A stretch of 40,176 nucleotides of DNA from a virus. Lineage: Duplodnaviria; Caudoviricetes. A program made the position numbers and the translations under genes. The notes beneath the pieces were generated by a model. It saw nothing but the letters and a program-made list of their open reading frames with translations, did not search any database and was not told where the DNA came from. Where the stretch lies: IMG/VR virus record IMGVR_UViG_3300019874_000001, positions 1 to 40,176 of that record, one strand, 5' to 3'. Shown one piece after another: positions 2,596 to 37,283 of this stretch; within the stretch, counting starts at the first letter, position 1, and each line of letters starts with the position of its first letter.

Positions 2596-2678
2596 TGCAG
2601 AAGGATGGAATTGAACCATCGACCTCAAGGTGGACAATCATGAAACCACCCTGTGCTCTACCGCTGAACTACCTCTGC
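2596..2678 (-). tRNA. Atypical tRNA-like gene with expanded anticodon arm (CAU within the loop; Met/Ile-like, uncertain)
   Basis: Acceptor GCAGAGG/CTTCTGC plus A discriminator; D arm GTTC-AGCGGTA-GAGC; T arm GATGG-TTCAATT-CCATC; anticodon stem CAGGG/CCTTG encloses 18 nt instead of 7; no encoded CCA. Confidence 0.8.
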
Positions 2679-26589: not shown

Positions 26590-26871
26590 TCAAGATATGA
26601 GTGTCCACACAACAATATTAGGACTTGTCCTAGATGTCATAATCCAAGCCATATCTGTATCAGTTCTTACAGCTATATCGCCAATGGAGAATATAGAGTT
26701 CCTTTGGTCATTAGCGGCAGGATCTGCACCTGTGAGTACATTTTTCTTAATGCCTAGATTCAAAGCTCCTACGATATCGCTATACATCTGAGATAATTGA
26801 TTAGATAGCGTAGGTGATAACTCTCTAACTTCTGCACCAAAGTTCTTATATTGCGGTAAGTTAAAAGTCAT
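26590..26871 (-). CDS. Small tail protein
   Basis: Coupled to the nozzle gene. Confidence 0.6.
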   Translation of the reverse strand: MTFNLPQYKNFGAEVRELSPTLSNQLSQMYSDIVGALNLGIKKNVLTGADPAANDQRNSIFSIGDIAVRTDTDMAWIMTSRTSPNIVVWTLIS

Positions 26872-29300
26872 ATTAATCTTCCCATAGGTTGCAATCCTGG
26901 CATCATAGCGTGAACTTTTATCTGCGCCCCGGCTTGGTTGTTTCTCATCCTAAATTGCAGGAATTTACCTACTTGGTTAATCCAAATCTTAACCCATTTC
27001 TTGCCACCCTTTTCGTTATTGATAGGCGAGCAATCTATGCGATATTTGAACTGAGGATCAGAAAAGTCCGTATCTTCGTTATTATTCACTAAAACATCTA
27101 TATCAAGAAATGCCGGTACAGGCTCCCCATCTTCATCTGTCAAAATCGTATCTGCAGTGCTGACGTAGAAGTATATCCATCCGCATTTGATTTTTTTATC
27201 AGAGTCTACCCAAGGATTAAGCTTCTTAGTAACGGCCTCTAGAGGAATAGTCCTAGTAGCCTGACCTCCTGAAACGTAAGTGCTAAAACCTGTAAAATCC
27301 TGACCGAAGTCTACAGTGAAAGTATTGTAAGGCGTATCTATAGAGATAATAGGAGCTTGTTTATGATTAGCTTCAGTCGTTCCAACTATTGCTTCAAAAG
27401 CAATGAAGTCGCCAACTTCATAGTTATTCCAATCTGTAGTCACCTGTAGCGTTTGTGTGTCTATTACTACAATATCTCTAATCATCTGAGGGTTATCTTC
27501 AGATTCGGTATCGTTAAGCTTCCATATCTCTCCCTTATGTCCTCCTCCTATTGCTATAGGGTTGCCTTTGTCAAAAGGAAAAGCATTCCAGTTACCATAT
27601 TGCGCAGACAAAGCATCCCAATTCGGAAACCCATTTGCAGCAGTAAGATTGCTCCAAAGAATAGTGAAAGCTGCCTGAAAGTTACCCATGCATGAAAGAG
27701 GTATGCGATAGATAGCAAAGTTATCTTCTTCAAAGTTTGTCACTAAGATTCTATCGCTAGAGCCTGAAGGAACGTTAGGCAGTTTCGGTATTCCGCTAGA
27801 AGGGTAAAGCAAGTAAACATCTCTATCTTCATCAATAAACCCAGAGAAGCAGGCAGTGAAATTTCCTCCATCAATATCATTAAAGGAAAACTGAGGAATA
27901 TTGTTATCCATCCTATCTACCTGATAGCCATCGCAGAGTATAAGCCCTCTAGGACTTGCTGCCATAGTGCGATTGAGGTAGCTAATGACAGAAAAAGCGG
28001 CAGCAGAGCCTCTACTAGAATCTATGCGCTGTAGGTTGAAAGGAGTTACATCATTGTTTGTATACTTTAGAACCCATGTAGCTGCTTCAGTGAAGAATAA
28101 TAAATCATCTCTATTAGCTGCTGCTCCAAAGAACCAGGTATTGTCAGGTATGTCGATGAATCCTGCACCTGGAGCAGTAAGATCAAAGTTATCTGTATTA
28201 GCTCCAAAGCCGGAAACTCTTATCCTTCTAGGATAGAGTACTCCTCCCTCTATAGTTCCAAATAATACAAGCCTATCTTTGAACTCAAATATCTGCCGGG
28301 CATTAAGAGTCCCTCCAGCAAAAGTAGGTGCATAGTCAGTGATTACACTTCCATCATATTGCTGAATTACATTGCCTACTACCCCATTGGCAAACAAAAG
28401 CCTAGGAACGCTAGTAGCGCTTTCATAGTTAACCCATGACCAAAAGTCTTTAGAGTTACCATTATAAGAGCCTGCAGGGATGTCTACTAAGGTATCTGTA
28501 GCAGGAACGTACTTATTGACATACCTTGTGTCTGCTACAATAAGCTCCCTAACGTTATTAGTCGGATAAAAGTTCATTATCCCCATTACCGGAAGTCCTG
28601 GAAAGAAATCAGAAGTGATAGTGATAGCAACGCCTATAGCGACTACGGCATTGAAGGTAATGCTTATGGCTCCTGTATCATAATCTACAGTTCCTGAGCC
28701 TCCTGCAGGCGTAGTAATAAAGCCACCAAGTCCATCATCAACGGCAGATTGCGCTCCTGCAGTAATAACTACAGTGCCTCGACGTAATGGCAGATTTGTC
28801 AGGGTATTGCTATAAGGTCCAGCCGTTCCATTGCCTACAGCAAAGTTGCCATAAGTCACAGTAATAGTAGAAGCTACGGCAGGAGGAGCTGTAAAGACTA
28901 AAGCAATAGCTCCAGTGACATAGTTTACAGTTCCTGTCCCATCGCCAGTAAGTCCTCCTATGCCATCATCTGTAACAACTTGGACAGGGTTAGAGCCATT
29001 AATTGTCAAACTTCCTGGAATTACGGGAGGAGTGACTTGAATTGCATAGGTGTCATTAGCGCCATCAATGACTCCTGTAACGGTATACGCAAAAGTGATG
29101 TTATGGACCATTCTACTTTCTGTGTATGTAGAAGTCTTTCCTGTAGCAAATCCAGAATAGCCGTCTCTTTTGTTAGTCACTCCTCTATAGACATAGCCAT
29201 CTAGCAGATCAGTAAAAGCATCATTAGGCAATAGCCAAGGCTGAAGCTCTCTGTCATAACCTGTCTTATAGTTGGATATTAGAAATGATTGATAACTCAT
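26868..29300 (-). CDS. Tail nozzle/stabilisation protein (P22 gp10 / T7 gp12-like position)
   Basis: 810 aa, beta-propeller-like repeats (FKDRLVLF..., RRIRVS), synteny. Confidence 0.75.
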   Translation of the reverse strand: MSYQSFLISNYKTGYDRELQPWLLPNDAFTDLLDGYVYRGVTNKRDGYSGFATGKTSTYTESRMVHNITFAYTVTGVIDGANDTYAIQVTPPVIPGSLTINGSNPVQVVTDDGIGGLTGDGTGTVNYVTGAIALVFTAPPAVASTITVTYGNFAVGNGTAGPYSNTLTNLPLRRGTVVITAGAQSAVDDGLGGFITTPAGGSGTVDYDTGAISITFNAVVAIGVAITITSDFFPGLPVMGIMNFYPTNNVRELIVADTRYVNKYVPATDTLVDIPAGSYNGNSKDFWSWVNYESATSVPRLLFANGVVGNVIQQYDGSVITDYAPTFAGGTLNARQIFEFKDRLVLFGTIEGGVLYPRRIRVSGFGANTDNFDLTAPGAGFIDIPDNTWFFGAAANRDDLLFFTEAATWVLKYTNNDVTPFNLQRIDSSRGSAAAFSVISYLNRTMAASPRGLILCDGYQVDRMDNNIPQFSFNDIDGGNFTACFSGFIDEDRDVYLLYPSSGIPKLPNVPSGSSDRILVTNFEEDNFAIYRIPLSCMGNFQAAFTILWSNLTAANGFPNWDALSAQYGNWNAFPFDKGNPIAIGGGHKGEIWKLNDTESEDNPQMIRDIVVIDTQTLQVTTDWNNYEVGDFIAFEAIVGTTEANHKQAPIISIDTPYNTFTVDFGQDFTGFSTYVSGGQATRTIPLEAVTKKLNPWVDSDKKIKCGWIYFYVSTADTILTDEDGEPVPAFLDIDVLVNNNEDTDFSDPQFKYRIDCSPINNEKGGKKWVKIWINQVGKFLQFRMRNNQAGAQIKVHAMMPGLQPMGRLI

Positions 29301-31240: not shown

Positions 31241-31990
31241 TTAAGCTACATCGCCAAGGTTGAAATAGGCGTTGAACTTAGTTGCAACGAAGTAAATTAC
31301 ATCGTTATCTGCACCCATAACTGCAGATCCAAGAGTTAGGCGATACTGAATCGGATAATCTTGAATAGCGTTCTGAGGAGCTGGGAAATTGGACTGAGAG
31401 CTAACTTGTCCAAGAAGAGGAGCAATCTTAGTGACTTGTCCGCTAGATGAATAAGCTCCTACTACTGTGATAGGCAGGCCGAAAGTGTCATACAACGCAA
31501 AAGTAGTCGCTGAAAGCACACGAACTACATAGGTATTGTTATTTAACTCTGCTGCTGCCGTTCCAATTACTTTAGTAATAACTACACGATCATAATCAGA
31601 AAGATTATGGTTCGCAGAAGTTGTTACCACTCCTGGAGTAGCTGTAGTAATACCTGTGATTACCAAATGTTCATTGGCAAATCCACCAGTTGTGTTAGCA
31701 ATCGTAATACCGTTGGTTGTCTCTAAGACAGAAGACAAATCGGTAGTCCCTCGTGATACGATAAGAGCATCCCCTGCAGGAAAGTCTCTAAACCAAACAC
31801 CCGAAAGGTTGCTTGCATTAGTTGCATATTTCGTGTAGTTGTACCATTCAAGCTTATCTGCCTGCCAAGGTAGAACTAAGTTGTATGCCGCACCTGCTGA
31901 TTGCAGATAGCCGGCATATGTATTCGTCACTTGACCAAGCTCTCTCAAGCCTGTAAAGACGTTTAATGCTGTTCCAATTGGAGCTGTCAT
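31241..31990 (-). CDS. Probable capsid decoration protein with E1-FCCH-like domain
   Basis: ITGITTATPGVVTTSANHNLSDYDRVVI...ELNNNTYVV...TTFALYD; follows MCP. Confidence 0.7.
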   Translation of the reverse strand: MTAPIGTALNVFTGLRELGQVTNTYAGYLQSAGAAYNLVLPWQADKLEWYNYTKYATNASNLSGVWFRDFPAGDALIVSRGTTDLSSVLETTNGITIANTTGGFANEHLVITGITTATPGVVTTSANHNLSDYDRVVITKVIGTAAAELNNNTYVVRVLSATTFALYDTFGLPITVVGAYSSSGQVTKIAPLLGQVSSQSNFPAPQNAIQDYPIQYRLTLGSAVMGADNDVIYFVATKFNAYFNLGDVA

Positions 31991-31993
31991 ATT

Positions 31994-32734
31994 TTATCCT
32001 TTTGTACTTCTAAGGTTTACGCACCATGAGTCGTCCAAGATCACTGACCCTAAACGGCCCTTCCAACCCATCGTTTGTCTTTGATTTAACGGGTCCTGAC
32101 CAGCGCCAAGAGGCTTGATGATCATTTCCATAGATTGATCGTCAATCATGATTCTTCCGTAAGCGTTAGCTGCAAAAAGCATGTTTGAGTATACTGCAGG
32201 GGCTACCGTAACATCTTTATATCCCTCAGATGTCATGACAAGGCGAACCTCATCACATGAGCCAAGCTCACTTTCAAGAACACTCTGCTGACGGGGATAA
32301 TCGGCAGTAGCCAAAAAATTCGCCAAATTCTTGAAATCTGTACGTAAATCGGTGCTAATTATCATCCAAAAAGCGGCCCAAACTGGGGCAGTCCCGAAGG
32401 CATTTGTTCCCTCCTGATTAGGTGACAGCTTCTTTCCGTTGTTTTCAGTAACGTAATCAACTGCTAACTCTAAGTCAGTAGTAGTGACCTCTGTGATAGC
32501 GTTACCATTGACTCCGTTAAGGCAGTCGATCTGCGCTGAGGTAGCTACAAGCATATTTCTTACTATTTTGTCGTAAGTACTTGCCATGTTCTGTGCAAGC
32601 ATATCTGCCACTTCGTTAGCTGTCTGATCTTGAACGGTGATGATTACATCATCGCTAAGCTCAACAACTTTACCGTATTGCGATACAGTCGCTGTGATGT
32701 CGAATTTAGTCACTTGCTCAGCGTTTGGTGTTAC
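31994..32734 (-). CDS. Major capsid protein (N4-gp56 family), exon 2
   Basis: VTP...QYG....SD, ELGSCDEVR, DPLNQRQTMGWK motifs. Confidence 0.9.
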   Translation of the reverse strand, partial: VTPNAEQVTKFDITATVSQYGKVVELSDDVIITVQDQTANEVADMLAQNMASTYDKIVRNMLVATSAQIDCLNGVNGNAITEVTTTDLELAVDYVTENNGKKLSPNQEGTNAFGTAPVWAAFWMIISTDLRTDFKNLANFLATADYPRQQSVLESELGSCDEVRLVMTSEGYKDVTVAPAVYSNMLFAANAYGRIMIDDQSMEMIIKPLGAGQDPLNQRQTMGWKGRLGSVILDDSWCVNLRSTKG

Positions 32735-33053
32735 CATTCTGTTACTTCAGCTCTCGCCTACTGACCATTTCTGGCGGAGAAACCTCTTCGGATCTCTCTC
32801 ACTATGTTTCCATAGTGTTCAGACTATCGCTTCCTCTTTCGAGGTCTTCTCACTTAGTCGTTCAGGCTGGATAAGATCTACAATCCAACAATCACAAAAA
32901 ACACATTTGCATTTGCATTTCTCGCAAAGCATCTGTGACATCATTTCAATTATTGGATCACGCATATATTATCCTTGCCCCTTGTCTTCCTTCTGCTTAC
33001 GCAGCGAGGAGTTCCAAGTCAATCAGAGAAGATTTATAGAGAGCATACATTTT
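32735..33053 (-). ncRNA. Group I self-splicing intron (319 nt) in the major capsid gene
   Basis: P1 AGAGGGU/GCUCUCU with U.G at the splice site; P3 UCUUCUC/GAGAAGA; P7 GACUA/UAGUC; P8 and P9 GAAA hairpins; terminal G; removal restores LTEG-VTP in frame. Confidence 0.93.
32819..32965 (-). CDS. Intron-encoded 48-aa Cys-rich mini-ORF
   Basis: MRDPIIEMMSQMLCEKCKCKCVFCDCWIVDLIQPERLSEKTSKEEAIV; AAGGA RBS; starts in the P6a loop. Confidence 0.45.
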   Translation of the reverse strand: MRDPIIEMMSQMLCEKCKCKCVFCDCWIVDLIQPERLSEKTSKEEAIV

Positions 33054-33257
33054 ACCCTCTGTTAATGGTGTCAACGCATCAGCTAAGTTATCAAACCTAC
33101 GGAAGATAGCGTTCTTGCTATTCTTCTGCGGAATACGTCTCTCTTGAGCAAAATACCCATAGACGTAGTAAGGCTGGTGTCTATCCAGCAAAATGTTATC
33201 GAAGAACAAGTTGACTTCTGGGTCTACTTGTACTGTCGTTGTTGTACCGGCGGCCAT
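33054..33257 (-). CDS. Major capsid protein (N4-gp56 family), exon 1
   Basis: IPQKNSKNAIFRRF.....TPLTEG N-terminal motif; AGGAG RBS; spliced product 314 aa. Confidence 0.9.
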
Positions 33258-33304
33258 ATTTATCTCCTAGTCAAAATATGTTTTGACAAGAGCGGCAAAA
33301 AAAA

Positions 33305-36719: not shown

Positions 36720-37283
36720 ATGTTTAAAGTTTTTGCAGGAAGAAAGTTTAACGTTGATGAATCTGGCTATTTGCATATGAAGGGAATTCGTCTGCATAGA
36801 ATTGTTTGGGAAATCCATAATGGCCCAATTCCTAAGGGATTTGATATTCACCATAAAGATGGAGACAAACTTAATAACGCTATTAACAATCTTGGATGTT
36901 TGAGTCACTCTGAACATCTTTCCATTCATATGAAAGAAAACTCCGAAAAGGTTCACGCTTGGCATAAATCTCCTGAAGGAAGAAAATATCTTGGAGAAAA
37001 AGCATCTAAATTAATGGCCGAGCGTCCATTCAAAACCTTTACTTGCCCCCAATGCAAAAAAAACTTCCTATCACAAAATGTGCATCGAGTAAAATATTGC
37101 GGTATTAACTGCCAACAAGCTGCTAGACGCTTAAGAGGAGATGATTCTATTGAAAGAAGTTGTGTCATCTGTTTAAAATCCTTTATTATCAATAAATATC
37201 AAAAAACCCTCACTTGTGGCTATAAATGTGGATCTCTCTATCGCACTCGTCTTGCTAAAGGAAAGAGAAAGTCTAAAAAATAA
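36720..37283 (+). CDS. Free-standing HNH homing endonuclease with C-terminal Zn fingers
   Basis: LHRIVWEIHNGPIPKGFDIHHKDGDKLNN...NL...HSEH; CxxC...CxxxC repeats. Confidence 0.9.
   Translation: MFKVFAGRKFNVDESGYLHMKGIRLHRIVWEIHNGPIPKGFDIHHKDGDKLNNAINNLGCLSHSEHLSIHMKENSEKVHAWHKSPEGRKYLGEKASKLMAERPFKTFTCPQCKKNFLSQNVHRVKYCGINCQQAARRLRGDDSIERSCVICLKSFIINKYQKTLTCGYKCGSLYRTRLAKGKRKSKK

What the first reader, a model, noticed from the sequence alone, without database searches (positions are those of the whole stretch)
32735..33053. Group I intron interrupting the major capsid protein gene
Seen: the two capsid ORFs are in different frames. Removing 32735..33053 joins GAG GGT to GTA ACA CCA (LTEG-VTP, the conserved N4-gp56 motif), giving 314 aa. 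Core helices are present: P1 with the IGS at 33038..33044, P3 (33026..33032 with 32845..32851), P6/P6a, P7 (32855..32859 with 32822..32826), P8, P9 and terminal G. Known: classic phage group I introns are mostly in DNA metabolism genes (td, nrdB, nrdD, polymerase); capsid introns are less commonly described. Inference: the most abundant virion protein depends on guanosine-dependent self-splicing, a possible metabolic checkpoint for assembly.
Basis: partly seen in the sequence, partly recalled or inferred. Interest (0 to 1): 0.82.

Follow-up and report, generated by a model that had tools for sequence, protein, structure and literature searches.

The report
Capsid-gene intron hiding a mini-gene
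A 319-base insert with the full anatomy of a self-splicing (group I) intron splits this soil phage's major capsid gene, a known arrangement, but one loop of it holds a small reading frame of a kind found in nearly every related intron with a long loop, which suggests these loops are likely kept translated.

Summary
The intron is real at 32735-33053 (minus strand). Removing it gives a 314-aa N4-gp56-family capsid protein, the length of intron-less relatives up to 98% identical. Splicing itself was not tested.

Capsid group I introns are known (LittleE, spliced in vivo; crAss-like phages), and this scan found this lineage before on other DNA. The GTP-checkpoint idea has no support: 79 of 80 relatives lack the intron here, while 11 of 80 carry others at seven different capsid sites.

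What is new lies in the P6 loop: a 48-codon ORF running into the ribozyme core. Of 44 distinct 80-330-nt P6 inserts in this family, 41 hold an ATG-started ORF in that one frame (28 of 28 in a fresh set, 0.26 expected). The ORFs sit behind a Shine-Dalgarno-like run in the P4/P6 strands, and related pairs show purifying selection. Twelve antisense endonuclease genes in the same loop keep the intron strand nearly stop-free. The loop is likely translated; shielding of the capsid pre-mRNA is my inferred reason.

The parts
33054..33257 (-). Major capsid gene exon 1 (codons 1-68), ends in U of the P1 U.G pair
   Evidence: TIGR04387 profile 1-63
32735..33053 (-). Group I intron, 319 nt, terminal G at 32735
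   Evidence: HMM of 41 relatives without the window finds only this locus, E 3e-36 and 3e-16
31994..32734 (-). Major capsid gene exon 2 (codons 69-314 and stop)
33038..33060 (-). P1: exon end 33054-33060 paired with IGS 33038-33044 (7 bp); intron 33045-33049 could form P10 with the first bases of exon 2 (one bulge, inferred)
32845..33032 (-). P3 pseudoknot: 33026-33032 with 32845-32851
32981..33018 (-). P4 (33015-33018 with 32981-32984) enclosing P5 (33008-33011 with 32987-32990)
32997..32999 (-). TAA that ends the unspliced exon-1 frame after 18 intron codons, in the P5 loop
32864..32980 (-). P6 (32977-32980 with 32864-32867) and P6a with a 108-nt AU-rich insert that folds as a long hairpin
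   Evidence: z -4.2
32972..32981 (-). Shine-Dalgarno-like runs GGGG (32978-32981) and AAGGA (32972-32976, 6 nt before the ATG), inside the P4/P6/P6a strands
   Evidence: sequence; function inferred
32819..32965 (-). 48-codon Cys-rich ORF: 33 codons in the P6 insert, 15 through P6, P7, P3, P8, stop at the end of the P7 3' strand
   Evidence: no homologue other than itself
32821..32861 (-). P7 (32855-32859 and 32861 with 32821-32826, bulged C at 32860): predicted guanosine-binding site; encloses P8 (32833-32844)
   Evidence: role of the site from established knowledge
32777..32817 (-). P9 (32800-32817, GAAA loop) and P9.1 (32777-32798)

Best explanation
The 319-base insert has the anatomy of a group I intron and is predicted to splice itself out of the capsid mRNA to give the 314-residue protein; it is most likely a selfish passenger at a conserved site, and its P6 loop holds a 48-codon reading frame that is likely translated. 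Predicted chemistry (established for the class, untested here): a guanosine bound at P7 attacks after the exon-1 U of the P1 U.G pair, then exon 1 attacks after the terminal G. The intron has no endonuclease of its own; relatives at other capsid sites carry LAGLIDADG genes, so it likely spread by homing in trans or by guide-directed reverse splicing. Across the family, long P6 inserts are almost always open for translation on the intron strand, whatever they encode. I infer that ribosomes load at a Shine-Dalgarno-like run in the not-yet-folded P4/P6 strands and cover the long loop, which would protect the capsid pre-mRNA from premature termination or cleavage, and that folding of the core hides the site again. 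Odds by step: group I intron with these boundaries 0.97; spliced in vivo 0.93; family P6 inserts translated 0.8; this window's ORF translated 0.65; shielding as the reason 0.4.
For: Shown: precise U|...G| boundaries restore a 314-aa capsid frame equal in length to relatives up to 98% identical; covariation of P3, P4, P5, P6, P6a, P8, P9; exon-matched P1 in 36 of 42. Patchy spread: 11 of 80 relatives carry 12 inserts at codons 32, 37, 89, 102, 123, 182, 277, all U|...G|, with LAGLIDADG ORFs in 4 of 4 scanned. The closest core (0.89) is a compact intron at another capsid site with the same exon hexamer and IGS (L146). P6 ORFs: 9 of 9 first inserts (0.22 expected); 28 of 28 in a set fetched without asking for ATG, 19 of 19 of them new, all in one frame (0.26 expected); 41 of 44 over all loci, the other 3 being a GTG start and two ORFs in another frame. 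ATG lies 2-5 nt after the conserved AA in 40 of 41. GGGG variant of P4/P6 in 43 of 45 insert-bearing against 53 of 142 compact introns. pS above pN in 3 of 3 close pairs: 0.32/0.06, 0.77/0.35, 0.37/0.13 (binomial p 0.0008, 0.003, 0.018). In 12 antisense LAGLIDADG genes in P6 the codons that would read as stops on the intron strand make up 7 of 274 Leu+Ser codons, against 30 of 71 in 3 sense-oriented genes.
Against: No RNA or protein data. Rfam does not detect the intron. No second copy at codon 68 was found (0 matches), so mobility at this site is inferred. This window's ORF is the least typical: ATG at offset 9, and its start site is paired in a strong hairpin (z -4.2); alone it has a 3% chance under shuffling. 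The pattern fixed the bases CAS at the junction, so genes ending in a stop there were not sampled. The GGGG enrichment is confounded by ancestry (ORF-bearing cores cluster on the tree). Purifying selection on the small proteins points to protein function, not only to translation. Ribosomes crossing P7 would unfold the core, a cost the model must absorb. 2 of 3 inserts of 40-79 nt have no ORF. Of 11 inserts over 330 nt only 1 met the ATG rule; 7 have a sense frame open over nearly the whole insert (6 with an antisense LAGLIDADG motif) and 4 are probably mis-delimited, running into a neighbouring intron.
Confidence: 0.7

Rival explanations
1. The intron is a guanosine-sensing checkpoint kept by the phage to time capsid production.
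For: Group I splicing needs guanosine (established). The idea is proposed for phage introns in PMC11878797 (Discussion), which also reports that T4 nrdB splicing falls in stationary phase.
Against: 79 of 80 close relatives lack this intron and 69 of 80 show no insert in the part held; the others carry introns at seven scattered sites. An intron-less relative occurs in the same run X1. This is the pattern of a mobile element.
Confidence: 0.07
2. The P6 mini-ORFs are functional cargo genes: the intron carries small, often zinc-binding proteins expressed from the strong late capsid transcript, and the protein is what selection keeps.
For: pS above pN in 3 of 3 close pairs. One family keeps its Cys pattern at 33-50% identity in introns at different capsid sites. 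15 of 41 have two or more Cys-pair motifs. All 4 database relatives of that family carry the core-derived tail.
Against: Most ORFs are unrelated to each other (11 similar pairs among 41); none reaches a Pfam cut-off and none beats E 0.001 in PHROGs; 40 of 41 lack a stop of their own before the core; antisense endonuclease inserts keep the intron strand open with no apparent cargo. Not exclusive of the best explanation.
Confidence: 0.35
3. In this window the P6 insert is only a non-coding hairpin or a decayed endonuclease remnant, and its ORF is chance.
For: Hairpin z -4.2 pairs the start site; no homologue; start offset is an outlier.
Against: Same frame, same stop and similar Cys content as the family pattern; 29 of 44 inserts also fold with z below -2 while coding; it has its own AAGGA 6 nt before the ATG.
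Confidence: 0.25
4. The split is an assembly error or a dead pseudogene.
For: No second record with an intron at codon 68 apart from the window's own sequence.
Against: A contig from a second sample and study (X3) spans the exon-1/intron junction with 0 differences, 32932-33293; both exons are 98-100% conserved in protein and the intron helices are intact.
Confidence: 0.01

Closest known systems
Mycobacteriophage LittleE capsid-gene intron (Pope et al. 2013, PMC3706429; passages read)
   Same: Probable group I intron splitting the major capsid gene, U at the exon end and G at the intron end; splicing shown by RT-PCR and N-terminal sequencing; endonuclease gene on the bottom strand like 12 relatives here.
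   Different: 820 nt with an endonuclease; the window intron is 319 nt with a sense mini-ORF and no endonuclease. Sequence kinship was not tested.
Group I introns in MCP genes of crAss-like phages (Yutin et al. 2021, PMC7886860; passages)
   Same: MCP is named as a typical intron site; one gene is split into five pieces.
   Different: Found through endonuclease domains in large gut phages; no RNA anatomy or mini-ORFs in the passages seen.
T4 td intron with I-TevI in the P6 loop and 'core creep' (Edgell et al. 2011, PMC3073962; passages)
   Same: An ORF in the P6 loop runs into P6a and P7; explained by loss of a stop codon.
   Different: There the ORFs are homing endonucleases. Here they are 27-95-aa non-nuclease frames, mostly unrelated, starting at a fixed spacing from the core and nearly all in one frame.
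Small ORF-less group I introns of Jug jumbo phages (PMC12880540; passages)
   Same: Introns of about 206 nt in essential phage genes; 37 of 76 supported as spliced by metatranscriptomes.
   Different: Named hosts are terL, nrdD and DNA polymerase; my control pattern, rich in very large contigs, has mixed hosts.

Membership tests
Group I intron | 5' exon ends in U paired with G of an internal guide (P1) | tested here: met
   7-bp P1 in the window; 36 of 42 family members with 5 or more pairs
Group I intron | Terminal G before the 3' exon; removal restores the host frame | tested here: met
   G at 32735; 314 aa as in relatives
Group I intron | Core P3-P7 pseudoknot, P4-P6 domain, P8, P9 | tested here: met
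   Covariation in P3, P4, P6, P8, P9; P7 complementary but nearly invariant; Rfam alignment of L172 places P1, P3, P8, P9 alike
Group I intron | Guanosine site: G-C pair in P7 next to a bulged base | tested here: met
   A-U pair, bulged C at 32860, G-C pair, both pairs invariant in 42 of 42; the rule itself is recalled
Group I intron | Self-splicing with a guanosine cofactor | not testable with these tools
   Needs RNA or in vitro assay
Rfam RF00028 model (a detection threshold, not a defining feature) | Score at or above 50 bits | tested here: not met
   No match in the window; compact relative 20.6 bits. PMC11878797 notes the model misses phage variants
Subgroup IA (T4-type IA2) | Extra hairpins between P7 and P3 (feature recalled) | tested here: not met
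   P7 5' strand and P3 3' strand are 3 nt apart; not filed under IA. No subgroup models were on hand, subgroup left open
Mobile (homing) group I intron | Encodes a homing endonuclease | tested here: not met
   Only a 48-aa ORF without family match; relatives at other sites have LAGLIDADG genes
N4-gp56 family major capsid protein (TIGR04387) | Score above the curated cut-off of 60 bits | tested here: met
   Exon-2 ORF 126 bits; intron-less 98% relative L001 180 bits

The most novel reading that the evidence does not exclude
In this capsid-dwelling intron lineage the P6 loop is a translated cassette slot: the ribozyme's own P4/P6 strands supply the ribosome-binding site, dozens of unrelated mini-genes and even the back strands of endonuclease genes are kept open for ribosomes that run into the catalytic core, and translation and folding exclude each other, so that ribosome traffic inside the intron guards or times splicing of the most abundant phage mRNA.
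Probability: 0.4. Interest if true: 0.72.

Novelty: new variant of a known kind. Interest (0 to 1): 0.5.

Why it matters
The intron alone is ordinary biology that annotation misses: Rfam does not see it and the capsid gene is called as two fragments. The family-wide pattern is the part worth a look. It gives a countable, natural test of the core-creep idea with non-nuclease ORFs, points to a set of small phage proteins hidden inside ribozymes, and suggests a rule (long intron loops must be translatable) that can be tested with simple start- and stop-codon changes in a reporter.

Tried and rejected
Rfam: no group I match in the window. Same-site intron by junction pattern in IMG/VR: 0 matches; in 80 metagenome loci only L399, the window's own sequence, is split at codon 68. 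No RNA holder listed among sequencing runs. Host: only 2 genome loci, 44% and 31% identical, so no host assigned. Mini-ORF homologues: only itself; Atlas hits at 0.82 or lower with low recognition, not used; 41 mini-ORFs gave no Pfam match at cut-off and no PHROG better than E 0.0019. Free-standing relatives of one mini-ORF family: none among 4 hits, all with the core tail; the search is word-limited and covered 24-91 aa only. A second intron in the window: none by HMM, pattern or own-genome search. P9.0 could not be assigned. One search used a strict 5' pattern that left 67 matches unresolved; one search repeated it with 8 unresolved and is the one counted. Literature searches for small non-nuclease ORFs in P6 or for stop-free strands over antisense endonucleases gave no paper on it; the library lacks most subscription journals, and bioRxiv supplements were closed. 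Scan look-ups for the mini-ORF pattern found nothing. Sandegren and Sjoberg 2007 was not held; seen only as a title and as summarised in PMC11878797. PMC10580990 (passages) and PMC11835236 (abstract and part of results) did not bear on the site.

Full report
Setting. The window is a complete 40,176-bp phage record with direct terminal repeats, with a terminase, a P22-like portal and a split major capsid gene on the minus strand. Its best sequence holders are soil metagenome runs. The host is unknown.

The observation. The two capsid ORFs (32997-33257 and 31994-32737) match profile positions 1-63 and 64-321 of TIGR04387, the N4-gp56 major capsid family. Removing 32735-33053 gives 314 codons without a stop. 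Of 80 related IMG/VR loci (the best 80 of 96), 79 cross codon 68 uninterrupted, up to 98% identical in protein, and 1 is a fragment that does not reach it. Among 93 distinct intron-less contexts, 75 read TEGVTP and 8 have the same exon hexamer as the window. A contig from a second sample and study spans the 5' junction with no difference, and an intron-less relative crosses the site in run X1, which may be the window's source.

RNA anatomy. I aligned the window intron with 41 relatives and counted pairs. P3, P4, P5, P6, P6a, P8, P9 and P9.1 each show two-sided changes; P7 is fully complementary but nearly invariant. P1 re-forms with different exons in 36 of 42. An HMM built without the window finds only this locus. 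Rfam misses it; one compact relative aligns to RF00028 below threshold with the same helix placement. There is no P2, no P5abc and no hairpin between P7 and P3, so it is not T4-type IA2 by the recalled criteria; no subgroup is assigned.

Distribution. 11 of the 80 relatives carry 12 other inserts, at codons 32, 37, 89, 102, 123, 182 and 277, all with U|...G| ends; 4 of 4 long ones scanned encode LAGLIDADG proteins. The pattern came from the window, so it favours near kin. A control pattern for another group I type gave a host for 21 of 57 loci scanned (96 of 142 flanking frames given, repeats from the same jumbo contigs dropped); 7 of 21 were capsid genes. So capsid genes are a common site in general and the main site for this lineage. 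Related cores also split a P22-like coat gene in MW202674 and follow an nrdD-like frame in PV062637. The closest core to the window's (0.89) is a compact intron near codon 177 of a related capsid gene with the same exon hexamer and guide, which fits guide-directed movement but does not prove it.

The P6 loop. Compact relatives close P6a with a tetraloop; the window has 108 nt there, with an ATG that opens 48 codons through P6, P7, P3 and P8 to a stop at the end of P7. In the loci then in hand, 9 of 9 inserts of 40-330 nt not selected for ATG had such an ORF (0.22 expected; the window and L074 prompted the test). I then fetched introns by a pattern that does not ask for ATG: 28 of 28 distinct inserts of 80-330 nt had the ORF, all in one frame, 19 of 19 among new ones (0.26 expected; 8 matches unresolved). 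Over all loci the count is 41 of 44, two of the 44 having been fetched by an ATG pattern; the three others have a GTG start or another frame. The ATG lies 2-5 nt after the conserved AA in 40 of 41, which puts the GGGG of the P4/P6 strands at ribosome-binding distance; that variant is in 43 of 45 insert-bearing and 53 of 142 compact introns. 26 of 41 stop where the window's does, 14 elsewhere in or past the core, 1 at the junction. Three close pairs with identical junctions show pS above pN (two distant same-length pairs were near saturation, 0.64/0.52 and 0.62/0.53, and not used). On a tree of 76 cores the 20 ORF-bearing ones cluster but need 9 changes, at least 3 forced by well-supported branches (rough bootstrap; only cores that my pattern could delimit were used). 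The inserts also fold better than shuffles (median z -2.4); the window's is among the strongest and pairs its own start site.

A second line. 12 P6 inserts hold a LAGLIDADG gene on the opposite strand. In them TTA, CTA and TCA, which read as stops on the intron strand, make up 7 of 274 Leu and Ser codons, against 30 of 71 in 3 sense-oriented genes; random recoding reached the observed open length in at most 2 of 300 trials each (the genes are related, so these are not 12 independent cases). Most of those open frames have an ATG near the start, several behind a purine-rich run.

Mechanism. Shown: boundaries, helices, restored frame, patchy distribution, the open-frame pattern. From established knowledge: two-step guanosine-dependent splicing. 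Inferred: in vivo splicing; spread in trans or by reverse splicing; translation of the P6 loop from a site that folding hides; shielding from termination or cleavage as the reason. The cargo-protein reading is a close rival and may hold as well. The GTP checkpoint has no evidence specific to this locus.

Known and new. Capsid group I introns are in print: LittleE with splicing shown and Tuc2009 cited (PMC3706429, passages), crAss-like phages (PMC7886860, passages). ORFs running from P6 into the core are known for endonucleases (PMC3073962, passages). This scan holds 415 findings with the words group, intron, major, capsid, phage, and at least three describe this lineage. I found no paper or scan note on non-nuclease mini-ORFs in P6; these searches are narrow.

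Verdict. Observation confirmed; interpretation partly supported. The intron alone would score about 0.25. With the P6 pattern I rate it a new variant of a known kind, interest 0.5.

Noticed in passing
window 36720-37283 (+): Free-standing HNH endonuclease gene on the opposite strand between terminase and portal, 3.7 kb from the intron; whether it could mobilise the intron in trans was not tested.
   Followed up: no
L056, L065, L093, L098, L106, L114, L140, L449, L466, L479, L508, L522: LAGLIDADG genes antisense in the P6 loop with the intron strand kept nearly free of stops.
   Followed up: yes
L053:2258-3000, L058:1821-2532, L056:2245-3000, L065:2243-3000, L078:2730-3012: Codon 89 of this capsid gene holds introns with a sense LAGLIDADG, an antisense LAGLIDADG or none; all have an extra hairpin in the P1 loop.
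   Followed up: partly
L415:35-1658: A close relative whose capsid gene is split three times, near codons 35, 102 and 289.
   Followed up: no
L082:2380-2650 (MW202674.1): A GenBank phage record annotates its coat gene as two proteins plus a hypothetical one; the gap holds an unannotated intron of this family.
   Followed up: partly
L083:1900-2800 (PV062637.1): Related intron core after an nrdD-like frame that also appears to hold an intein, with an HNH gene after P9.
   Followed up: no
window 32735-32737: The intron's last three bases form an ATG in frame with exon 2, so unspliced RNA could give a 247-aa truncated capsid protein; no good ribosome-binding site precedes it.
   Followed up: partly
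window 2596-2678 (-): A tRNA gene with a long anticodon region overlapping the start of a Band 7 gene.
   Followed up: no
window 31241-31990 and 26868-29300 (-): Two virion-region genes with weak E1_FCCH-like domain matches below cut-off.
   Followed up: no
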